The notes below the pieces were generated by a model that did not search any database, had not been told where the DNA came from, and worked only from the letters and a program-made list of their open reading frames with translations. A stretch of 64,000 bases of DNA from Shigella phage Tf. The translations under genes were made by a program, and so were the position numbers. This document shows positions 1,198 to 42,778 of the stretch, one piece after another. The number at the start of each line of letters is the position of its first letter. Position 1 is the stretch's first letter. The DNA lies in the sequence record OR980947, one strand, 5' to 3'.

Positions 1198-1595
1198 GAC
1201 TCTTAAACAGACACAGCTTTGTAGTAAAGCGTAAAGTCTCTGAAGACGGTTATTATAACGATGATGGTGATTGGGTAGCTTCACAAGATGTTGTAGAGGT
1301 TAACTGTAAAGGTAATATCCAGCCATATATCAAAGGTTCTGTAAAGAACGGTACACAGATTGCTTTACCGGAAGGTATTAGACTTACTGATACAAGAATC
1401 CTGTATACCACATATAAACTTAGAACTTCAGATGATGTAGAGTGGAATGAGTCTGACATTGTTATGATTGATGGTCATGAGTATGAAGTATTTATGACTA
1501 TGGATTGGTCACAGCAATTAGCCCATACGTCCCATTATGAATATATCATTATTAGAAGGGATAAAATGAATGCAGTTAGAAACAGCAGAACTTGA
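1194..1595 (+). CDS. hypothetical virion protein (head-tail region)
   Basis: Overlapping start/stop with neighbours; structural module. Confidence 0.3.
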   Translation: MRLLNRHSFVVKRKVSEDGYYNDDGDWVASQDVVEVNCKGNIQPYIKGSVKNGTQIALPEGIRLTDTRILYTTYKLRTSDDVEWNESDIVMIDGHEYEVFMTMDWSQQLAHTSHYEYIIIRRDKMNAVRNSRT

Positions 1596-2169
1596 AAAAG
1601 GTCTAGTTAGAACCTTAGTGGATGTTATTGGTCACAGACTAGCTCGTGATAAGAATAATAGACCAAACGTAATTAGAGCTTACCCTTCTGATAACTCAAA
1701 TGACAAAGGTTTAAAACCTGACCAGCCATTTATTACCGTATATTGTCAAGATGCTGCAACACCTTATGGTTGGGTTCTTGATAAGTTTGTTGAGGATGAT
1801 GTAGTTTGCTACAGAATTGCTTTTCAGATTCCAGTATTAATTACGGTGAATGGTAAAGGTGCTCACAGTATTATGCTTGAGCTTAAACAACGATTAGAGA
1901 TGAGTTCAGTCAGGGATTTAATTCTTGAAGAGACAGGAGCTACAGTTTTAGACACTGGAGCTATTCCAAATGACTATACTTATCTTAATACAGATTTCGA
2001 AAATTCTGCGCCTCTTGTTGTAACTCTTGTAAAAAATTCAGTCCTGAAAGATGAACGTGGAAGTATTATTGAGCGTGTCATTGTTGATGGTGAATTAGTT
2101 TACGAAGAAGGACAAGAGCCACCAGAATATACTATCCATCTAGATGTAGACTCCAAAGGGGTAAAATAA
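1570..2169 (+). CDS. hypothetical tail completion-like protein
   Basis: Position immediately upstream of the putative sheath gene. Confidence 0.3.
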   Translation: MQLETAELEKGLVRTLVDVIGHRLARDKNNRPNVIRAYPSDNSNDKGLKPDQPFITVYCQDAATPYGWVLDKFVEDDVVCYRIAFQIPVLITVNGKGAHSIMLELKQRLEMSSVRDLILEETGATVLDTGAIPNDYTYLNTDFENSAPLVVTLVKNSVLKDERGSIIERVIVDGELVYEEGQEPPEYTIHLDVDSKGVK

Positions 2170-3522
2170 ATGTGGAATCCAATTGTTAATGTAGATATTA
2201 CATTGAACACCGCAGGAACTACAAGAGAAGGTTTTGGGCTACCACTATTTTTAGCTTCAACAGATAACTTTGAAGAAAGAGTCCGTGGTTACACTTCCTT
2301 AACTGAAGTTGCTGAAGATTTCGATGAGAGGTCTGCTGCATATAAGGCTGCTAAACAACTTTGGAGTCAGACTCCTAAAGTAACTCAGCTTTATATTGGT
2401 AGACGTGCTATGCAGTACACTGTATCAATTCCTGATGCCGTTACTGAGAGCACTGATTATTCTTTAACTGTAGCTGTGAGCGGTGGAATCTCTCAGCCAT
2501 TCCAGTACACTTCACAGGCATCAGATACCGCTGAGAAGGTGTTACAGCAGATTAAAACACAGATTGAAGCAGAACCTTCTGTAAAAGACCTTGTTACTGT
2601 CAATGTAACTGGTACTGGTGGTTCAGCGACAATGGTAATCACCAAAGCTGGTGTGAACGACTTCGTGAAGGTTACTACTACAGCACAAACAGTGTCAATT
2701 GCAAGTACAACTGCTGACACAGCATCGACTGCTCTGGCAGCTATTGAAGCTTATTCAACTGACTGGTATTTCATTGCAGCGGAAGACAGAACTCAACAGT
2801 TTGTCTTAGCAATGGCTTCTGAGATTCAAGCTCGTAAGAAGATTTTCTTTACAGCTAACTCTGATGTAACAGCCCTACAAGGTACAGAATTAGCCAGTGC
2901 AAATGATGTTCCAGCACAGCTTGCTAAGAATATGTACACTCGTACAGTTTGCTTGTGGCATCACACAGCAGCAGAGGATTATCCAGAAATGGCATACATT
3001 GCTTATGGTGCTCCATATGATGCAGGTTCGATTGCTTGGGGTAATGCACAGTTAACTGGTGTAGCTGCTTCTCTACAGCCAGCTAATAAGAGACCTCTGA
3101 CAAGTATTCAGAAGTCAGCTTTAGATGCACGTCACTGTAACTTTATTGACCTTGATGGTGGTGTTCCAGTGGTTCGTAGAGGGATTACTTCTGGTGGGGA
3201 ATGGATTGATATCATCCGTGGTGTTGACTGGTTAGAATCAGACCTGAAAACTTCTCTGAGAGACTTGCTAATTAACCAGAAGGGTGGTAAGATTACTTAT
3301 GATGATACTGGTATTACCCGTATTCGTCAAGTCATTGAAACCTCTCTGCAAAGAGCAGTCAACAGAAACTTCCTGTCATCTTACACAGTTAATGTTCCTA
3401 AAGCCTCTCAAGTTGCTTTGGCAGACAAGAAAGCACGTATCCTGAAAGACGTTACCTTCGCAGGTGTCTTAGCAGGGGCTATCTTGGATGTTGACTTGAA
3501 AGGTACAGTGGCTTACGAATAA
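2170..3522 (+). CDS. putative tail sheath protein
   Basis: 450 aa ORF directly upstream of a ~150 aa tube-sized ORF, chaperones and tape measure (P2/Mu-like order). Confidence 0.5.
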   Translation: MWNPIVNVDITLNTAGTTREGFGLPLFLASTDNFEERVRGYTSLTEVAEDFDERSAAYKAAKQLWSQTPKVTQLYIGRRAMQYTVSIPDAVTESTDYSLTVAVSGGISQPFQYTSQASDTAEKVLQQIKTQIEAEPSVKDLVTVNVTGTGGSATMVITKAGVNDFVKVTTTAQTVSIASTTADTASTALAAIEAYSTDWYFIAAEDRTQQFVLAMASEIQARKKIFFTANSDVTALQGTELASANDVPAQLAKNMYTRTVCLWHHTAAEDYPEMAYIAYGAPYDAGSIAWGNAQLTGVAASLQPANKRPLTSIQKSALDARHCNFIDLDGGVPVVRRGITSGGEWIDIIRGVDWLESDLKTSLRDLLINQKGGKITYDDTGITRIRQVIETSLQRAVNRNFLSSYTVNVPKASQVALADKKARILKDVTFAGVLAGAILDVDLKGTVAYE

Positions 3523-3537
3523 TAGAGGTAAATTGGA

Positions 3538-3984
3538 ATGGCTATGTATCAGCAATATTCCCCTAAAGACGTTGTATGTAGCTGGAATGGTATTGCCATT
3601 GAAGGCTTTGCCCCAGACTCATTCTTGCGTCTACAGAGAACATCACCACTTATCACACCAGTTGTAGGTGCAGGTGGTCAAGTTGCTCTGACAAGAAATG
3701 CAGACAAGACAGGTACTATTGAGATTGAGCTAATGCAGACTTCTCTCTCTAACCAGATGCTTTCTGCAATTCAAGCTAAACAAGACAATATGGAACTTGA
3801 AGAAGATATCTCTTCTAACTTCGTAATCTACGACCCATCAGGCTCTGTTCTGGCAACTGGTATTAATGCTTGGTTGCAGGAATTACCACAGATTGAACTT
3901 GGTCGTGACCAGAACTCTAAAACTTGGATTTTTGGTTGTGAGAAGTTAGACTACACTTCTACAATTCCAGCGTCAAGTGTTTAA
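3538..3984 (+). CDS. putative tail tube protein
   Basis: 148 aa ORF between sheath-sized gene and chaperone/tape-measure genes; followed by a terminator. Confidence 0.5.
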   Translation: MAMYQQYSPKDVVCSWNGIAIEGFAPDSFLRLQRTSPLITPVVGAGGQVALTRNADKTGTIEIELMQTSLSNQMLSAIQAKQDNMELEEDISSNFVIYDPSGSVLATGINAWLQELPQIELGRDQNSKTWIFGCEKLDYTSTIPASSV

Positions 3985-3995
3985 TAAATCCTATA

Positions 3996-4029
3996 AGGGG
4001 GAGACTTTAAAAGGTCTTCCCCTTTTTTG
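3996..4029 (+). terminator. rho-independent terminator
   Basis: GC hairpin gggggagac...gtcttcccc followed by tttttt. Confidence 0.6.
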
Positions 4030-4057
4030 TTTCTTTTAAAAGTATTAAGGAATCACA

Positions 4058-4456
4058 ATGAAAACAGAATCTAGAGTAATTAATGGTAAGAAAGTAAATA
4101 TCGTTCTGCTTGGGGCGAGAGATGGTATTAAGATGTCTATGAAGTTGGGTAAAATTGTTGTTCCAACCTTTGCACAGATGCTGTCAAGTCTGACTGATAA
4201 AGATAAGAAAGAAGCTCCAATGGTTCCATTTAAAGAACTTGTTGAAGCTTGTTTTGACAGAATTGAAGAAATTAACCTTGAAGAAATGGCTACACTATTA
4301 TTTCAAGGGGCAACTGTTGATGACTTCCCACTTAATATTGATACATACTTCCAAGCAAACTACGGTGAATTTATTGATTACTTAGCATTTGCGCTGGAGG
4401 CAAACTTCGGAAGTTTTTTCGAAGCAAGCATTTTCAAAAGCCTAACTTCTCAGTAA
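4058..4456 (+). CDS. putative tail assembly chaperone
   Basis: 132 aa ORF immediately upstream of tape measure gene. Confidence 0.4.
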   Translation: MKTESRVINGKKVNIVLLGARDGIKMSMKLGKIVVPTFAQMLSSLTDKDKKEAPMVPFKELVEACFDRIEEINLEEMATLLFQGATVDDFPLNIDTYFQANYGEFIDYLAFALEANFGSFFEASIFKSLTSQ

Positions 4457-23127: not shown

Positions 23128-23640
23128 TCAAATTAGTTTTGCAAACTCTCCGTGGAGTTTAATAGCAGCTTCACAGTAAGCTTTATGGGCTTCTTCAGGC
23201 GTGTCAAACATACCAAGATGATAGTTTTTACCTTGTAAACGTATCATTGCTCGAAACCTTTTATTTATCTTCTGTACACCTTTTGGCAACCCAGATAGGG
23301 ACTTTCTTGACCGATTGCAAGAGTTTTGTGAAGCTGTACAAACCCTTAAATTCAAGTACCTATTGTCCCAACCATCCCCATTCTTATGGTCAACCTGTAA
23401 GGTTTTATCAGGCAGATATCCATCAATATACAAGATAACTAAACGATTTGCTTGGTAACTCCTTCCATCAATCAGCAACTGAACTGACTTGTGTCCATCA
23501 GTATTTGTTCTGTAGTTTCCAGCCCTCTTACCTCCAAATCTAGAGTTAAAATTTGCATTACCTTCTCTAAACTTCCAAGTAAAGACCCCTGTTTCGGGGT
23601 CGTAGTCCAATAGCTCCTTAAGACGAATTTCTGTAATCAT
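23128..23640 (-). CDS. HNH homing endonuclease with AP2-like DNA-binding domain (free-standing)
   Basis: LLDYDPETGVFTW N-terminus, HNH core VDHKNGDGWDNRYLNLRVCTASQN, AP2-like GMFDTPEEAHKAY; probable start at 23640 within tracked ORF ending 23679. Confidence 0.75.
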   Translation of the reverse strand: MITEIRLKELLDYDPETGVFTWKFREGNANFNSRFGGKRAGNYRTNTDGHKSVQLLIDGRSYQANRLVILYIDGYLPDKTLQVDHKNGDGWDNRYLNLRVCTASQNSCNRSRKSLSGLPKGVQKINKRFRAMIRLQGKNYHLGMFDTPEEAHKAYCEAAIKLHGEFAKLI

Positions 23641-23650
23641 TTCAACACCA

Positions 23651-24207
23651 TCAATGTACCTCATACCAGCTCTTACCAACCTTACCTGTGCCAGTTACAA
23701 GCGTCTCACTCTTCAAACCTAAATTCTTAGATGCCTGACCATACATCCAGTCAGTTATGGCTTTAACTTCTTGAGTCATACTTTCTGGGCATTCCCAACT
23801 GTTCTCATCGTGGTATGCCAGCAAAAGTCTAGCACCAATTGCTGGTTTCCGTCCATTTAATTTTGTCAACCCTTCTTCACATGCTCTTCTACAAGCAAGG
23901 TTAATTGCCTCGTTCTGAATCTGACTTTCCGAACCCATGAGCAAATAATTCAACAACTTATGTGGAGATTTACACCACAACCAAGCTCCAGCAACCTTTA
24001 CAAAACCCCCTTTAGAGATTGCAGCAGTCTTACCAAACACCTCTTCAAGAGCCTTTTTAGTTGCTTTGTAGTCAGCTTCCAAGTCATCTAGCAGCTTCTT
24101 AATCTTTGGCAAACGCACAAAGTAAGTCTGTTTAGTTAATGCACCTTCCTGAGTAGTGGCTGCCTTAATAGTTTTAGCAAACTTTTCATCACCTGCACCG
24201 AACAATA
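23651..24207 (-). CDS. DNA polymerase (family A), exon 2
   Basis: Begins with motif B continuation LFGAGDEK (T7 pol FLYGAGDEK) and contains motif C YHDE; in-frame stop immediately upstream. Confidence 0.8.
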
Positions 24208-24518
24208 CATCTGGTCAATACACTCGCAAGGTGTACCAGTTCTCTTATGAACTTCTCCGCATTTCTACGGAGTGTCGGACTATATCACGTAGTAGTAATA
24301 CTACCGTTGCACTTGGGAATGGTCATTAGCTTACCACCCTACTCTACTCAGTTCATACATTAAGTATGCTTTTCGATAGTCTCTGAACGTTTCTCTGTTA
24401 GGAATCTCTATAGTTATGTTATTTGCTTTAGGAGTCCTAACAGAGACTTCGCTGCTGATTACCATATCTTTACAGACTTAGGCTTCCAGCAATTCACAAC
24501 GTTTTACATGCGCCACTG
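24208..24518 (-). ncRNA. group I self-splicing intron (ORF-less) in DNA polymerase gene
   Basis: Conserved group I elements on the minus-strand RNA: P gaattgctggaa, Q aatcagcagc, R gttcagagacta, S gatatagtcc; 5' splice after U, terminal G at 3' end; joining exons gives IYALLFGAGDEK. Confidence 0.75.
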
Positions 24519-26694
24519 ACGCATAGATACCATTCTTAGCCTTCTTGCGGCCTTTACTAATCTCATGAAGAAGATTCTCATCCTGAGTAGCTCGACAAGT
24601 CAAGATGTCCTGCTCATCATTCAAGCTAAAGTAAATACTGTTCAGTGTATGTGCATCAGTCCCTGAATAGACAACGTACAGGTCATTCTCAGAGTCATAG
24701 CGCAGGTACTTATCAATCTCTGGGTTGAGGTACTCATCAAAATGTTTACAGTAATAACGTCCATCTTCTTGACGAATAAACTCAATCTCTTCTTTACCTT
24801 GCGTTACCGCTTTGGTGAACTCTTTATCACCCATAAAGTTACAAAGTAGAACTAACTGGGCTGAGTTCATATCAACAGAGACTACGTTGGTTCCCTCTTC
24901 ACAAATCCACACCTCCCTCATAGGTGCTCCATAGACAGCAGCACCAGACGGTACGTTTACAATACCATATTGTGTCATTCGTCCAGTTGAAGTACCAAAC
25001 ACCATTGCACCAGCACTAAGGCGACCATCAGGACGAATCTGGTTCAACCAACCTTTTTCACCATCCTTTGAGTTCTCAATAGTTCTGCGTCGGTGCATCA
25101 AAGTATAGTACTTAGCAATCTTCTGTCCAAGCTCACCTTCAATCGTATCATAAGAAGACTCAGTAAGTTTTGGTGAAGTACGGATTAAGCAAGGTTCAAG
25201 CAAATCTGTGTACTTCTTCACAGACCAGTTATGCTCAATGTACTGTACACCTTCATGTTCAACATAGCTCAAACCACACCGCTCAACCATTTCCTGCCAC
25301 TTAGGATGTTTTGTAATCATCTTTTTATTGTCTTTGAAACGACAAACTTTGACAGGGCGACCGTCTGAGTCTTTCTTGTAGTTCCAGTCATCTGGAATCC
25401 AACCAACTGATTTCAAGTAGTCTTTAACAACTGCTACCTGAGTCATACGAGAAACTTCAAAATCAATTGGTGTATATGGTGCATCAATCAAACCTGTGTA
25501 GCGACTTGACTCAAGTTCAAAGTGGTTAACAACGTGACTGTTATAGTACTTCACAGTTTTAACTGTTTTTACTGGCTTCCAGTCTTTGCATTTCTTACCA
25601 ATCTTTGCATTCAACTCATTGCAAATTGCACGAGCATCCTTCATTGCTACAAAGCCTTCCTTGTACTCTTCACCAGTTACAGAGTTGGTTGGTGTATAGC
25701 AATTTCTCTTTTCAATGTTAAAAATCTTTGTAGTTGGCTTACCAAATGGCTTGATTTCATATGTCTGCATCTCACCGTTACGTACCTGCTGACGATACTT
25801 TGTCTTAGGGTACTTGGTAATTCTTTTCAGTCCATCTGCATGACCAAATGTTTCAACATACTCATTCCAAGCTTTTGCAAACTCTTCTCCAGTGACTTTA
25901 CCTTTGGTCTTAATAGTTGGAGGAAGATGTGGTTCAACTTCTGAAGCAAGCTCATTAGTCAACTTGTCAAGTTCCTTTACATGGAACTCCATAAGTTCTT
26001 TATCAGCTTTCCAACCATTGATAGCCTGTTGACTCATCCAGAAAGATGTTTCTTTAGCTCGCATGTAGGTTTCATAAGTGTCTATGCCACACTTCTTAAG
26101 CTTGAGATACTCATTATCAAGTGCCCGTTTAGTTTTGGCGTTAATACGGATATCTTCTACAACACGAGTGAAGATTTCTGCATTCCACACACCCCAATGC
26201 TCAATCTCTGGTTTACGAACACCAACACGAGCACCCCATGCAGCCAAACCATGAGCACCTTTATAACCCTTTGGAGTTGGTCTATCCATCCACTGAACAC
26301 GAGACTGGATAAGAGAGTCCTGAAAGAAATTACTCCACGGTTTACACTTTGGGTTATCAAAGTTCCATAAATCAGGTGCAATGTGATTGAAAACCCACCA
26401 GTCATAACCGAGACCGTTATGGATGCAAAGACGTTTTGCCTTTAACGCAAATTCAACGCCTTCACGCAAACCACCTTTAATGTACTTGGTATACTTGTGA
26501 CCGAGGATAGGCTCATCTGTAAAGACCCATACAGGCGGCTCTTCATCGTCAGATTTATAGTCTGCGAAAGCCATTACGTGCACTTTAGTGAACTCAAGGA
26601 GTAAACCATCAGTTTCTGTATCACCAACCAAATGTAAGTTTTTAAAATCTACGTTTTCCATTTCTACTCCCTCTAAATCATTAACCTCATACAT
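24519..26694 (-). CDS. DNA polymerase (family A), exon 1 with 3'-5' exonuclease domain
   Basis: Exo I motif GDTETDG; pol motif A VSVDMNSAQL; motif B start RKKAKNGIYA; tracked ORF runs 13 codons into the intron before a stop; alternative start at 26661 with gaggga RBS. Confidence 0.8.
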
Positions 26695-39794: not shown

Positions 39795-39799
39795 AATGA

Positions 39800-39824
39800 A
39801 AGGGTCTCTTCAGAGACCTTTTTA
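39800..39824 (+). terminator. rho-independent terminator
   Basis: aagggtctct tc agagacctt followed by ttt. Confidence 0.55.
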
Positions 39825-39842
39825 GCATGTAAAGGGGCAATA

Positions 39843-41039
39843 ATGAACAAAGTACAGATTATTAAAAAGAATGGCTCACTTGAAGAACCTGATATCAAAA
39901 AAGTTTTAGCGGCAGTAACAAAGTCAGCTAACAGGGTTGGATATAAAGAACTGCCACCAGATGTTACCCAAGCTCTTGAGTCAGCATTTATGAGGATTCT
40001 GGTAAAATCCACTAAGCAGAATAACTTACTCGTTTCAGTAAATGATATTCACAGTATTGTTGAGGGTGCTTTGGCAGAAGTCAATCACGAGATTTATGAG
40101 TCTTACTCAACATATAGAAATTATCGTAAAGAGGTTGCTCAAAATTGGGATGAGCTTTACCAAAAGACTAGAGACACACTCTTCTTAGGTGACCGTGAAA
40201 ATGCTAACTTTGACAGCAGTTTAATTTCTACAAAAGGTTCAATTATTCGTGGTTACCTGACTAAAGAAATCTTTAAACAGTACCATTTAACACCAGAGGA
40301 ACTTGAAGCCATTGAAAAAGGGTTTATCTACATCCATGACTTAAGAGACCTGATTTTTGGTGGTATCAACTGTTGCCTGTTTGACATTGGTAAAGTGCTG
40401 AAGGGTGGCTTTGAAATGTCTGGCATCGAATACTGTGAACCAAAGTCTGTGCTGTCGGCCTTGCAGGTTATTGGTGACGTAGTTCTTTCAGCAACTGCAC
40501 AGCAATTTGGTGGCTTTACTTTAGCAGAGATTGATAAGGTACTTGTACCGTATGCTAAGAAGTCTCTACGCTATCATGCTGAGAAAGCAGCATCTTATGG
40601 TATTCCTAAAGAACATTACCACAATTATGTCATGGAGCAGTTACAGATTGAACTAACTCAAGGTTTCCAGTCACTTGAAATGAAACTAAATACTGTACCT
40701 TGTAGCCGTGGGGATTTTGCATTTACAACTTTGACATTCGGGTTACTTGATTCAGATATGTCTAATGAAGATAACCGACTGCAATACATGATTGCAAGTA
40801 CTCTCCTAGATGTTCGTATGAATGGACAAGGCAAGAGTAAAAAACCTGTTGTATTCCCTAAACTGGTTTATATTTATGACCAGAAGAGACATGATGAGAA
40901 TATCTGTCAAGGTCACCTGTACAGTAAAGCTATTGAGTGTTGCTCTAAAGCAATGTACCCAGATTTCTTAAGTGTGTCTGGTCATGGTGCTGTAGCAGAG
41001 GCTTTTGAGCGTTCTGGTAAGGTAATTTCACCGATGGGT
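39843..41039 (+). CDS. nrdD: anaerobic ribonucleoside-triphosphate reductase, exon 1
   Basis: NrdD-like sequence YIHDLRDLIFGGINCCLFD; exon ends ...ISPMG, stop follows within intron. Confidence 0.8.
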
Positions 41040-41781
41040 TAACAAGCTCTATAGCTCATCTAAAACGTGCCTAAACAGGGAAACTCTACAGATGTAGACA
41101 ATCCTGTGCTAAATGATGTACGATGTAAGAAACTATACAACATAGGAGTATTACATGCCAAATTATCATGTTACTGAGGACGGAAGGGTCTTTAGGAAAA
41201 ATGGTGTAGAACTTACGCAGTGGAAATCCAACACTGGTTATATGAAAGTAAGGTTTTATGGAAGGAAGAATCGTGACATGTATGTCCATAGGTTAGTTGC
41301 TGAAAAGTATGTACCTAACCCTAACAATCTTCCAATTGTAAAACACAAAGATGATAACAAACTGAACAACCATGCTTCTAACTTAGAATGGGGAACTCAT
41401 TCTGAGAATGTTAAAGAAGGCTATGAGAATGGTTGCTACAAGTTTTGTAAGCGTTCATATGCTGTGAAGGCTACACATAAAGTGACAAAAGAAGTTATTG
41501 TTGCTAAGTCAATACGAGAGTTATCCAATATACTCGGATATAATCGCAAGACTATCTCTTCAATATTGAAGGGTGTAAAAGAACATAATAACTTTGAACA
41601 TGAATTTGAATACATCTAAATGCCGAACGACTAACCGTGATGAATGTAGCGGTGTAGGGTCAAGCGACTCGAAATGGTACGCTACTTAGAAATAAGTAGA
41701 AGATATAGTCTGGACTTACTGGCGACAGTAAGCAGCTTGAATAAAGCGGGGTAAGCTTAGCGAACTTACCTGAACAACAAG
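41040..41781 (+). mobile_element. group I intron in nrdD carrying an HNH homing endonuclease ORF
   Basis: P4 pairing cagggaaa / caatcctgtg upstream of the ORF; R-like cgaacgactaac and S-like agatatagtct downstream; 5' splice after U, 3' terminal G; joined exons read ISPMG-CRAFLSPYHNEYGEEFYVGRANIGAASLNLP. Confidence 0.7.
41155..41619 (+). CDS. HNH homing endonuclease (intron-encoded)
   Basis: HNH motif HKDDNKLNNHASNLEWGTHSENV; taggag RBS; located in intron loop. Confidence 0.75.
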   Translation: MPNYHVTEDGRVFRKNGVELTQWKSNTGYMKVRFYGRKNRDMYVHRLVAEKYVPNPNNLPIVKHKDDNKLNNHASNLEWGTHSENVKEGYENGCYKFCKRSYAVKATHKVTKEVIVAKSIRELSNILGYNRKTISSILKGVKEHNNFEHEFEYI

Positions 41782-42729
41782 TGTAGAGCATTTTTATCAC
41801 CATACCATAACGAATATGGAGAAGAGTTTTACGTTGGTCGTGCTAATATTGGTGCTGCATCTTTGAACTTACCAATGATTTACCAGTATTCTAAAGAGAA
41901 TGGTTTAGATTTCTGGAAAGAGCTTGATAAGTACCTAGAAATGATTCGCAGCTTCCATAAGAAACGTTACGAAATGATTGCCAATATGCCAGCAAGTTCT
42001 AACCCTCTTGCATTCACACAAGGTGGTCTGTATAAAGGGACTAAGAAGCCTACTGACAAGGTTGGTTGGGATATTGTGAAATCCTTCACAGCTTCTTTTG
42101 GGGTTACTGCTCTTGATGAGTTATCTGTTCTTGCTGAAGGTAAACGACTTCATGAAGTTGGAAGTTCTAGTTTTGCATACGATGTTCTGGCATACATTAA
42201 CATGAAAACTGAAGAGTTTAAGAATGAAGATGGCTTCCTGTATGCAGTATATGGCACTCCAGCAGAGTCATTGTGTGGAACTCAGCTAAAACAGTTCAGA
42301 GATATGTTTGGTGTTATTAAAGGCGTTTCTGACAAGGAATACTTTACAAACAGCTTCCATATGAATGTTGCAGCAAACATCTCACCATTTGAGAAGCAGG
42401 ACTTAGAAGAGCCATTCTTCCATATCTGTAGAGGTGGCAGAATCCAGTATGTAAGGGTAGCTAACCCAGAAAACTTACCAGCACTTAAGAGTTGTATTAC
42501 CAGAGGGATGTTGAAGGGTTTTTATCAGGGACTTAACTTTGACTTAGCAATCTGTGAGCATTGTGGTAACAGACCAAAGGCTGATGTTGAAGAGTGTGAG
42601 GTTTGCCATTCACATGATATCTCTGTGATTAACAGGGTGTGTGGGTACTTGTCATTCACAAAAATTAAAGGTCAGTCTCGAATGAATGACGCTAAGATGG
42701 CAGAAATTAAGGATAGAGTCTCTATGTAA
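41782..42729 (+). CDS. nrdD: anaerobic ribonucleoside-triphosphate reductase, exon 2
   Basis: Zinc site CEHCGN...CEVCHSHD and glycyl-radical motif RVCGYLSF at C-terminus. Confidence 0.8.
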   Translation, partial: CRAFLSPYHNEYGEEFYVGRANIGAASLNLPMIYQYSKENGLDFWKELDKYLEMIRSFHKKRYEMIANMPASSNPLAFTQGGLYKGTKKPTDKVGWDIVKSFTASFGVTALDELSVLAEGKRLHEVGSSSFAYDVLAYINMKTEEFKNEDGFLYAVYGTPAESLCGTQLKQFRDMFGVIKGVSDKEYFTNSFHMNVAANISPFEKQDLEEPFFHICRGGRIQYVRVANPENLPALKSCITRGMLKGFYQGLNFDLAICEHCGNRPKADVEECEVCHSHDISVINRVCGYLSFTKIKGQSRMNDAKMAEIKDRVSM

Positions 42730-42738
42730 AACTTGACA

Positions 42739-42778
42739 AGGTGATGTGGGTCTTGATAGGCTTACATCACCTTTTTTA
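42739..42778 (+). terminator. rho-independent terminator
   Basis: aggtgatgt ... acatcacct followed by tttttt. Confidence 0.55.

What the first reader, a model, noticed from the sequence alone, without database searches (positions are those of the whole stretch)
41040..41781. Group I intron with an HNH homing endonuclease gene inside nrdD
nrdD is split into 39843..41039 and 41782..42729. The intervening 742 nt carry an HNH endonuclease ORF (41155..41619) with its own RBS, a P4-like pairing upstream and R/S-like P7 elements downstream (cgaacgactaac, agatatagtct). The predicted ligated exon sequence ISPMG-CRAFL...GRANIGAASLNLP is continuous NrdD-like sequence. An intron in the same gene family is known in T4 (nrdD/sunY), which makes this a plausible mobile-intron insertion.
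Basis: partly seen in the sequence, partly recalled or inferred. Interest (0 to 1): 0.6.

Follow-up and report, generated by a model that had tools for sequence, protein, structure and literature searches.

The report
HNH-carrying group I intron in nrdD
The anaerobic ribonucleotide reductase gene of this Felix O1-like phage is interrupted, just before the codon for its catalytic cysteine, by a self-splicing-type (group I) intron carrying its own DNA-cutting "homing" enzyme; it is a genuine mobile element, but the same one has already been reported in sister phages.

Summary
nrdD is split into 39843..41039 and 41782..42729 by a 742-nt insert (41040..41781) that carries a 154-aa HNH ORF (41155..41619).

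The insert is a group I intron of the T4 td-like (IA2) type.
- All core helices (P1, P3–P9.2, P10) are present.
- A contiguous 15-nt internal guide pairs with both exon ends.
- The 5' exon ends in U and the intron ends in G.
- Natural ORF-deleted copies of the same intron in sister phages pass Rfam's curated threshold. The window copy does not, because the ORF fills the P6 loop.

The ORF resembles I-HmuI, a nicking homing endonuclease, and is under strong purifying selection.

The insertion site is immediately before the codon matching T4 NrdD Cys290. This is not the T4 nrdD (sunY) intron site. Homologous intron+HNH units occupy the same site in a Vequintavirus and a Vibrio phage.

Within Felixounavirus there are intron+ORF, ORF-deleted and intron-less alleles. 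A short tract on the 3' side of the site diverges in step with intron presence, which fits homing.

Splicing and cleavage are inferred, not shown.

The element is already annotated and briefly published for phage Meda, so novelty is low.

The parts
39843..41039 (+). nrdD exon 1 (399 codons: ATP-cone plus the N-terminal half of the NrdD barrel); ends ...AUG GGU
   Evidence: ORF and Pfam; boundary fixed against the intron-less wV8 allele
41040..41781 (+). Group I intron, 742 nt, T4 td-like (IA2); starts UAA (an in-frame stop for exon 1) and ends in G41781 (omega-G)
   Evidence: Rfam partial hits; ORF-less alleles pass the RF00028 threshold; helix check
41033..41060 (+). P1: exon GAUGGGU (41033-41039) pairs with intron GCUCAUC (41054-41060), with a U·G wobble at the 5' splice site
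   Evidence: P1 conserved in phiWec191 and F96
41046..41060 (+). Internal guide sequence GCUCUAUA|GCUCAUC. The 5' 8 nt pair with the first 8 nt of exon 2 (P10, 41782-41789); the 3' 7 nt pair with the last 7 nt of exon 1 (P1)
   Evidence: 15/15 pairs; 1 of 200,000 shuffles; unique in the window. P10 covaries with synonymous exon codons in F96
41066..41120 (+). 5' strands and hairpins of the core: P3 5' 41066-41071; P4 41075-41080/41103-41107; P5 41084-41089/41094-41099; P6 5' 41115-41120
   Evidence: Rfam P4-P6 hit at 41075-41172
41144..41148 (+). Shine-Dalgarno AGGAG of the HNH ORF, 6 nt upstream of the ATG
   Evidence: sequence
41155..41619 (+). HNH homing-endonuclease ORF (154 aa), I-HmuI-like, looped out of P6. 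Its last codons form the P6 3' strand (41611-41616) and its stop codon lies in J6/7
   Evidence: Pfam HNH_3; PHROG 59; PDB 1U3E E 4.5e-10 over aa 3-145; pN/pS 0.05-0.11
41624..41781 (+). 3' catalytic half: P7 41629-41633/41706-41710; P7.1 41634-41637/41650-41653; P7.2 41657-41661/41666-41670; P3' 41676-41681; P8 41682-41688/41693-41699; P9 41715-41721/41726-41732; P9.1 41735-41738/41744-41747; P9.2 41750-41755/41765-41770; omega-G 41781
   Evidence: Rfam alignment; about 71% identity to the T4 td intron
41782..42729 (+). nrdD exon 2 (315 codons). It starts with the Cys codon equivalent to T4 NrdD Cys290 and contains the glycyl-radical domain
41782..41841 (+). Intron-linked divergent exon tract (co-conversion or target-site tract). 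Synonymous differences at +3, +12 and +18 are fixed between intron-bearing and intron-less alleles

Best explanation
A mobile group I intron of the T4 td-like IA2 type interrupts nrdD between Gly399 and Cys400, the residue equivalent to T4 NrdD Cys290.

Proposed mechanism:
1. After transcription the intron folds, with the roughly 490-nt ORF region looped out of P6.
2. Its 15-nt internal guide holds the end of exon 1 (P1, U·G at the splice site) and the start of exon 2 (P10).
3. Two guanosine-dependent transesterifications remove the intron and restore the ...SPMG-CRAFL... reading frame.
4. The intron's own gene makes an I-HmuI-like HNH endonuclease. In a mixed infection this enzyme nicks or cuts the intron-less nrdD allele next to the insertion site, probably on the exon 2 side.
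5. Recombinational repair copies the intron, plus a few tens of bases of exon 2, into the recipient.
6. Once the intron is fixed in a lineage the ORF can be lost by deletion while the ribozyme is kept.

What is shown: the sequence anatomy, the homology, the covariation, the allele polymorphism, and the selection on exons and ORF.
What is inferred: splicing itself, endonuclease activity, strand and position of cleavage, and ongoing homing.
For: Ribozyme:
- Partial RF00028 hits to both halves of the core.
- Naturally ORF-deleted copies of the same intron (97-98% identical in the retained parts) score 55.4-60.4 bits against a threshold of 50.
- All helices P1, P3-P9.2 and P10 form in the window and in the homologs from phiWec191, Vibrio phage F96 and T4 td.
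- 229 of 232 helix cells pair and 28 of 58 positions carry compensatory double changes. The shuffle control averages 184.8 with a maximum of 201.
- The guide sequence pairs 15/15 (1 of 200,000 shuffles).
- P10 tracks synonymous codon changes in exon 2 between the window and F96.

Gene still functional:
- The ligated ORF equals the intron-less gene in length.
- Exon pN/pS is 0.035/0.057 in intron-bearing alleles and 0.024/0.060 in intron-less ones.
- The first 27 codons of exon 2, including the Cys, have no in-frame start codon upstream of them.

Endonuclease:
- HNH_3; full-length match to I-HmuI, PDB 1U3E.
- H64, N76 and N85 are invariant.
- pN/pS is 0.05-0.11.

Mobility:
- Three allele classes occur in one genus.
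- Two independent ORF deletions have occurred.
- Between-class divergence is 22% and 15% in the first two 30-nt windows of exon 2, against 6% gene-wide and with no excess upstream. Fixed synonymous differences lie at +3, +12 and +18.
- The rest of the gene does not partition by intron status.
- Homologous intron+HNH units sit at the identical site in NrdDs only 29-35% identical.
Against: - No RNA or biochemical data exist for this element.
- The window copy itself is below Rfam's gathering score (36.9 against 50).
- The helix alignment used for covariation was made by hand and leans towards pairing. Only four independent lineages were used.
- The Asp that precedes the catalytic His in I-HmuI is Lys here and in phiWec191, and Cys in F96. 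That this Asp binds the metal ion in I-HmuI is from my memory, so activity is not assured.
- The NUMOD1 match is below its threshold.
- Some HNH-associated interruptions in phages do not splice: CB7_245 and Aeh1 nrdA (PMC7344957).
- The divergent exon 2 tract could be one ancestral haplotype kept in linkage rather than repeated co-conversion.
Confidence: 0.9

Rival explanations
1. The gene is split by a homing-endonuclease cassette and is not spliced. The two NrdD halves are translated separately and assemble after translation, as described for Aeromonas phage Aeh1 NrdA split by mobE.
For: - Most GenBank records annotate two separate nrdD CDSs plus an HNH gene.
- Non-splicing HNH interruptions exist (PMC7344957; PMC3653736).
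- The exons remain under purifying selection, which a working split protein would also explain.
Against: - A complete, covarying group I core and a 15/15 splice guide are present.
- The ribozyme is retained intact when the ORF is deleted.
- Exon 2 has no in-frame ATG, GTG or TTG until 41863, so 27 conserved codons including the catalytic Cys could not be translated.
- The break lies between Gly399 and Cys400, the residue that counts to Cys290 in T4 numbering.
Confidence: 0.04
2. The intron splices but is no longer mobile. The HNH protein has lost nuclease activity or taken on another role (maturase, regulator), and the allele pattern reflects vertical descent plus ordinary recombination and deletion.
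For: - The Asp next to the catalytic His in I-HmuI is replaced by Lys.
- ORF-less derivatives are common.
- All intron-bearing alleles share a single flanking haplotype at +3, +12 and +18, which is compatible with one ancestral insertion.
Against: - Purifying selection on the ORF is strong (pN/pS 0.05-0.11).
- H, N and N are invariant across a subfamily that is 39-50% identical.
- The same Lys is found in phiWec191, whose ORF is intact at the same site.
- The rest of nrdD does not partition by intron status, and the linked tract ends at different points in different phages, for example SME50. This fits repeated transfer into different backgrounds.
Confidence: 0.12
3. The intron is degenerate and does not splice, so nrdD is a pseudogene. 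The gene is dispensable under aerobic laboratory growth.
For: The window copy fails Rfam's gathering threshold. One record labels the gene only as a misc_feature 'similar to' nrdD (D1-2).
Against: - Both exons are intact in all 7 intron-bearing alleles examined and are as constrained as intron-less alleles.
- The low Rfam score is explained by the 490-nt ORF loop, because ORF-less copies pass.
- All core pairings are intact.
Confidence: 0.02

Closest known systems
The nrdD intron with HNH gene of other Felixounavirus phages (Meda, UAB_Phi87, JH2, FSL SP-010/012, CRP22 and others)
   Same: It is the same element at the same site. The whole interrupted nrdD region is 94-96% identical, the 742-nt intron 93-98%, and the HNH protein 100% identical to that of phage CRP22. 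[quoted passage not shown] The split nrdD was noted for UAB_Phi87, HB-2014 and JH2 (PMC4837284).
   Different: Nothing substantive; this is another copy in a new isolate. In the papers I could search, none gave the intron class, its structure, the splice-site pairings, the catalytic-Cys location, the ORF-less derivatives or the flanking-tract signature.
Phage T4 td intron with I-TevI
   Same: The ribozyme type matches: the P4-P6 and P7-P9.2 sequences are very similar (about 71% identity over the 3' 160 nt). P7.1 and P7.2 lie between P7 and P3'. The ORF is looped out of P6. The intron begins UAA and ends ...GAACA(U/A)(A/C)A(U/A)G.
   Different: The host gene differs (thymidylate synthase). The ORF is a GIY-YIG enzyme rather than HNH. 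td has a P2 hairpin, which is absent here: only 5 nt separate P1 from P3.
Phage T4 nrdD (sunY) intron with I-TevII
   Same: Same host gene family, and a phage group I intron carrying a homing endonuclease.
   Different: The insertion site differs: it lies at about residue 280/281 of this protein's numbering, 119 codons upstream. The endonuclease is GIY-YIG rather than HNH (PMC2988022). The two are not orthologous.
[quoted passage not shown]
   Same: The protein matches I-HmuI over its full length (1U3E, E 4.5e-10), with an N-terminal HNH and a C-terminal DNA-binding tail. As at that DNA polymerase site, related intron+HNH units occupy one identical site in very divergent phages (PMC3428280; here). 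Those enzymes nick in exon 2, the same side as the intron-linked substitutions here.
   Different: About 31% identity only. The target gene is different. The Asp before the catalytic His is Lys. Activity is untested.
nrdD introns with HNH genes in Vequintavirus phiWec191 and Vibrio phages F96/F93
   Same: The ribozymes are homologous, with identical P7, P7.1 and J6/7 sequences. The HNH proteins are homologous (47-50% and 39-42% identity). The insertion point is identical, after ATG GGT and before the Cys codon.
   Different: The host NrdD proteins are only 29-35% identical. The peripheral helices (P3, P6, P8, P9-P9.2, P10) have different sequences with compensatory changes. These copies are not annotated as introns in their records.

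Membership tests
Group I intron (Rfam RF00028) | Match to the curated covariance model at or above the gathering score (50 bits) | tested here: inconclusive
   The window copy scores 36.9 bits for the 3' half and 17 bits for P4-P6, which is below threshold. Natural ORF-deleted alleles of the same intron in REP10, D1-2 and RPN213 score 55.4, 55.7 and 60.4 bits. The shortfall is explained by the 490-nt ORF in the P6 loop.
Group I intron (Rfam RF00028) | Conserved core helices P3-P8 in the canonical order, with the P7 guanosine-binding helix | tested here: met
   All helices were located and pair. In four lineages 229 of 232 cells pair and 28 of 58 positions carry compensatory changes, against a shuffle maximum of 201. 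The alignment was made by hand.
Group I intron (Rfam RF00028) | 5' splice site after a U that forms a U·G pair in P1; intron ends in G; an internal guide sequence pairs with both exons (P1 and P10) | tested here: met
   U41039·G41054 and G41781. The guide at 41046-41060 pairs 15/15 with the exon ends (1 of 200,000 shuffles).
Group I intron (Rfam RF00028) | Guanosine-initiated self-splicing that yields ligated exons | not testable with these tools
   Needs RT-PCR or in vitro splicing. Indirect support: the exons are as constrained as in intron-less alleles.
Subgroup IA2 (T4 td-like phage introns) | Extra P7.1 and P7.2 hairpins between P7 and P3', P9.1 and P9.2 extensions, and sequence similarity to T4 td | tested here: met
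   P7.1 is at 41634-41653 and P7.2 at 41657-41670. Identity to the td intron 3' region is about 71%. The definition of the subgroup is from my knowledge of the Michel-Westhof classification.
HNH homing endonuclease, I-HmuI-like | HNH motif with the catalytic His and the two conserved Asn residues | tested here: met
   Pfam HNH_3 at 40.2 bits against a cutoff of 24.8. H64, N76 and N85 are invariant in the alignment with I-HmuI and homologs.
HNH homing endonuclease, I-HmuI-like | Asp adjacent to the catalytic His (metal ligand in I-HmuI, from memory) | tested here: not met
   The position is Lys63 in the window and in phiWec191, and Cys in F96. The significance is unknown because the whole nrdD-intron subfamily lacks this Asp.
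HNH homing endonuclease, I-HmuI-like | C-terminal DNA-binding module (helix-turn-helix / NUMOD type) | tested here: inconclusive
   NUMOD1 scores 17.4 bits against a cutoff of 22.8. The alignment to I-HmuI nevertheless extends to residue 145.
HNH homing endonuclease, I-HmuI-like | Site-specific nicking or cleavage of the intron-less allele | not testable with these tools
   Needs a biochemical assay.
Mobile (homing) intron | Presence/absence polymorphism at one exact site among close relatives, with flanking exon markers linked to the intron | tested here: met
   Three allele classes were found. Divergence is 22% and 15% in the first two 30-nt windows of exon 2, against 6% gene-wide. Fixed differences lie at +3, +12 and +18.
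T4 nrdD (sunY) intron / I-TevII | Same insertion site and a GIY-YIG ORF | tested here: not met
   The T4-type site maps to residues 280/281 here, against 399/400. The ORF here is HNH.
Intein | In-frame insertion translated together with the host protein | tested here: not met
   The insert is 742 nt (not a multiple of 3) and begins with an in-frame TAA. The HNH ORF has its own RBS and start codon.
Free-standing endonuclease splitting a gene into two translated halves (Aeh1 nrdA/mobE type) | No ribozyme, and independent translation signals for the downstream half | tested here: not met
   A ribozyme core is present. There is no in-frame start for the first 27 codons of exon 2.

The most novel reading that the evidence does not exclude
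The intron, its HNH gene and its target site form one old, portable unit aimed at the codon of the catalytic cysteine of class III ribonucleotide reductases. This unit has crossed between unrelated phage groups (Felixounavirus, Vequintavirus and a Vibrio phage lineage). It is still homing within Felixounavirus with very short, one-sided co-conversion tracts. By analogy with the intron endonuclease of phage PhiPA3 (PMC11620839, seen only as an abstract), it may also act as a weapon against co-infecting intron-less relatives. The cross-lineage sharing of site, ribozyme and ORF is shown here; current activity and any competitive benefit are speculation.
Probability: 0.4. Interest if true: 0.4.

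Novelty: already known. Interest (0 to 1): 0.2.

Why it matters
For annotation: in most deposited Felixounavirus genomes this gene is filed as two 'nrdD' fragments plus an HNH gene, or as hypothetical proteins. The exact splice junction given here (41039|41782) allows a single joined CDS.

For biology, this is a tidy natural series of homing-element stages within one genus: intron with ORF, two independent ORF deletions that spare the ribozyme, and empty sites. The target is the codon of the catalytic cysteine, and related copies sit at the same site in distant phages. That makes it a convenient system for studying nicking-type HNH homing and co-conversion. It does not change any concept.

Tried and rejected
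1. Rfam at the gathering threshold on the window found nothing at the locus. This was resolved with a permissive search and with natural ORF-less alleles.
2. Orthology with the T4 nrdD/sunY intron was rejected: the site and the endonuclease family both differ.
3. I looked for RBS sequestration by a hairpin, as seen for I-TevI. The 41105-41175 fold is no better than shuffles (z = -0.06), so no claim is made for this copy. phiWec191 does have a perfect ACUCCU/AGGAGU pairing over its SD; I saw this by eye and did not test it.
4. The MAFFT alignment of ORF-trimmed introns (A2) misaligned the variable hairpins, so I did not use the count of structure pairs or fold_alignment on it. I used explicit helix strands in a script instead, which leans towards pairing.
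5. Intein and simple read-through were rejected on frame and stop codon.
6. I did not run the large protein-database searches, structure prediction or metagenome scans. The phage collection already answered the questions.

Full report
**What is there**

The window comes from a Felix O1-like phage (Felixounavirus). The nrdD region is at most 96% identical to any deposited genome; the best match is Salmonella phage Sl26.

- Exon 1 is 39843..41039, the insert is 41040..41781 (742 nt), and exon 2 is 41782..42729.
- Joining the exons gives a 2145-nt open frame, the same length as the uninterrupted nrdD of phage wV8.
- The junction reads ...ISPMG|CRAFL....
- Pfam places the ATP-cone and NRDD profile positions 1-250 in exon 1. 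NRDD 264-560 and the glycyl-radical domain are in exon 2.
- The insert is not a multiple of three and opens with an in-frame TAA. Neither read-through nor an intein can rejoin the halves.
- Exon 2 has no in-frame ATG, GTG or TTG before 41863. Its first 27 codons can therefore only be translated after RNA splicing.

**Is it a group I intron?**

At Rfam's curated threshold the window gives no hit at this locus. A permissive search finds the two halves of the group I core separately.
- P4-P6 lies at 41075-41172 (17 bits).
- The P7/P8/P9 region lies within 41552-41732 (36.9 bits; E 1.4e-07 in the local search and 8.4e-06 against the whole window).
- The HNH ORF lies between the two halves.

Sister phages supply a natural control. 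REP10, D1-2 and RPN213 carry the same intron with the ORF deleted (316 or 292 nt). These copies score 55.4, 55.7 and 60.4 bits, above the 50-bit threshold. The window copy falls short because of the roughly 490-nt loop, not because the core is defective.

I located every helix in window coordinates.

| Helix | Coordinates |
|---|---|
| P1 | 41033-39 / 41054-60, with a U·G pair at the splice site |
| P10 | 41046-53 / 41782-89 |
| P3 | 41066-71 / 41676-81 |
| P4 | 41075-80 / 41103-07 |
| P5 | 41084-89 / 41094-99 |
| P6 | 41115-20 / 41611-16 |
| P7 | 41629-33 / 41706-10 |
| P7.1 | 41634-37 / 41650-53 |
| P7.2 | 41657-61 / 41666-70 |
| P8 | 41682-88 / 41693-99 |
| P9 | 41715-21 / 41726-32 |
| P9.1 | 41735-38 / 41744-47 |
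| P9.2 | 41750-55 / 41765-70 |
| Terminal G | 41781 |

The guide GCUCUAUA|GCUCAUC (41046-41060) pairs without a gap with the first 8 nt of exon 2 and the last 7 nt of exon 1. One of 200,000 shuffles of the intron's first 40 nt did as well, and no other 15-mer on the + strand of the window does.

The architecture is that of the T4 td intron (subgroup IA2): P7.1 and P7.2 lie between P7 and P3', the ORF sits in the P6 loop, and P9.1 and P9.2 are present. The 3' 160 nt are about 71% identical to td. Unlike td, there is no P2.

**Comparative support**

Homologous introns with homologous HNH ORFs occur in two other phage groups:
- Vequintavirus phiWec191 (762 nt; HNH 47-50% identical);
- Vibrio phage F96 (819 nt; HNH 39-42% identical).

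With T4 td as a fourth lineage, 229 of 232 helix cells form standard pairs. Of 58 helix positions, 28 carry compensatory double changes. Shuffling partners among the sequences gives 184.8 ± 4.7 paired cells, with a maximum of 201. The helix strands were assigned by hand, which favours pairing, so this is supporting evidence rather than a stand-alone test.

One detail stands out. P10 follows the synonymous codons of exon 2: UGU-AGA pairs with CUAUA in the window and phiWec191, and UGC-CGA pairs with UUGGCA in F96.

**Where it sits**

Counting from the C-terminus of a T4-type NrdD puts the Cys of the PMGC motif at residue 290 and the glycyl-radical Gly at 580. From my knowledge of the T4 enzyme, these are the residue numbers of its active-site cysteine and its glycyl radical.

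- The intron therefore lies immediately before the codon of the catalytic cysteine.
- The phiWec191 and F96 introns lie at exactly the same point, after ATG GGT, although their NrdD proteins are only 29-35% identical to this one.
- The T4 nrdD (sunY) intron is elsewhere, at residue 280/281 in this numbering. It encodes the GIY-YIG enzyme I-TevII (PMC2988022).

**The ORF**

- ORF 41155..41619 has AGGAG 6 nt upstream of the ATG.
- It matches Pfam HNH_3 and PHROG 59.
- It aligns over residues 3-145 with I-HmuI, PDB 1U3E (E 4.5e-10).
- Its last codons form the 3' strand of P6 and its stop codon lies in J6/7. This explains why both natural deletions keep the final 11 codons.
- H64, N76 and N85 are invariant. 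The Asp before the His in I-HmuI is Lys here, which is a caveat for activity.
- Among four Felixounavirus copies pN/pS is 0.05-0.11, so the protein is maintained by selection.
- A hairpin over the RBS is not better than chance.

**Signs of mobility**

Three allele classes exist in the phage collection (counts are approximate):
- about 60 records carry the full 742-nt intron;
- about 35 more carry only its ORF-less form;
- most of the roughly 235 records that match the ligated junction are uninterrupted.

The two ORF-less forms are different deletions. One removes 426 nt at an AAT microhomology. The other removes 450 nt between imperfect repeats.

I compared 13 alleles, 7 intron-bearing and 6 intron-less.
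- Between-class divergence is 22.4% at +1..+30 and 14.8% at +31..+60 of exon 2.
- The gene-wide figure is 6.1%, and there is no excess upstream of the site.
- Elsewhere, between-class divergence equals within-class divergence.
- Three synonymous positions (+3, +12, +18) separate all intron-bearing alleles, including the ORF-less ones, from all intron-less alleles. Further downstream the association breaks at different points in different phages.

This is the pattern expected from homing with short, one-sided co-conversion, or from target-site changes. The tract lies on the side where I-HmuI-type enzymes nick; I-HmuI cuts 3 nt into exon 2 (PMC3428280). A single ancestral haplotype kept by tight linkage is not excluded.

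Exons of intron-bearing alleles are as constrained as those of intron-less alleles (pN/pS 0.035/0.057 against 0.024/0.060). This argues that the interrupted gene still works.

**What is already known**

- The split nrdD with a homing endonuclease was reported for UAB_Phi87, HB-2014 and JH2 (PMC4837284).
- Homing-endonuclease insertions were noted as the main differences among Felix O1-like phages in 2013 (PMC3728262).
- Felix O1 itself lacks the insertion (PMC3185647).
- Phage Meda's GenBank record joins the two exons into one CDS.
- I found no paper giving the intron class, structure, splice-site pairings, catalytic-Cys location, cross-lineage conservation of the site, ORF-less derivatives or flanking tract. 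These are refinements of a known element.

**Verdict**

The mechanism is the standard one for a mobile phage group I intron carrying a nicking-type HNH endonuclease. Splicing and cleavage remain inferred, and some HNH interruptions in other phages do not splice (PMC7344957), so RT-PCR is the decisive test. Novelty is low (already known) and interest is about 0.2.

Noticed in passing
window 24255-24530 (- strand); flanking ORFs 24478-26694 (-) and 23651-24205 (-): A second group I intron without an ORF passes Rfam's threshold (62.9 bits, E 1.4e-13). It splits a family A DNA polymerase gene: the downstream piece matches Pfam DNA_pol_A positions 218-381 at 27.9 bits, below the 34.3-bit cutoff, and the 738-aa upstream piece has no Pfam hit. 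The same ORF-less polymerase intron is mentioned for phage Meda (PMC6486253). I did not define its exact splice sites.
   Followed up: partly
window 23128-23679 (- strand): A 183-aa HNH_3 + AP2-domain ORF lies directly downstream of the DNA polymerase exon 2 and overlaps its end. It looks like a free-standing homing endonuclease next to the ORF-less polymerase intron. This raises the possibility that it acts in trans on that intron's site, as mobE does for I-TevIII. Not tested.
   Followed up: no
L007 (Vibrio phage F96, OZ196197.1) 283-1441 and 1946-2764: The nrdD of this Vibrio phage carries two separate HNH-containing interruptions (HNH CDSs at 385-1314 and 2085-2591). The second is the homolog of the window's intron, at the same site. 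I did not examine the first, which lies near residue 230 of the window's NrdD numbering.
   Followed up: partly
L009 (Escherichia phage phiWec191, LC739540.1) 1208-4093: The two nrdD exons and the intron HNH gene of this rV5-like phage are annotated as 'hypothetical protein', 'endonuclease' and 'hypothetical protein'. The intron is 2369-3130. Its Shine-Dalgarno AGGAGU can pair perfectly with an upstream ACUCCU; I saw this by eye, and it resembles RBS sequestration in the T4 introns.
   Followed up: partly
search hits H42 (MG065668.1, 'Campylobacter phage A126', 43 kb) and H153 (MG065690.1, 'Campylobacter phage A135'): A record labelled as a Campylobacter phage (A126) contains a Felixounavirus-type nrdD, 96% identical, with the ORF-less intron. 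About 10-14 'Campylobacter' records match in all. They may be mislabelled or contaminated assemblies.
   Followed up: no
window 41155-41619 compared with 39843-42729: The HNH protein is 100% identical to that of phage CRP22, but the whole nrdD region is best matched by a different phage, Sl26, at 96%. Synonymous divergence within the ORF reaches 0.34 between copies while the ribozyme core is nearly invariant. The locus is a mosaic, as expected where homing and gene conversion are active.
   Followed up: partly
window 39797-39826 and about 42737-42775: GC-rich inverted repeats followed by T runs flank nrdD. They correspond to the rho-independent terminators annotated in wV8 and Meda. nrdD with its intron and the HNH gene may therefore be one transcription unit, with no obvious separate promoter for the HNH ORF. 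I did not run a promoter scan.
   Followed up: no
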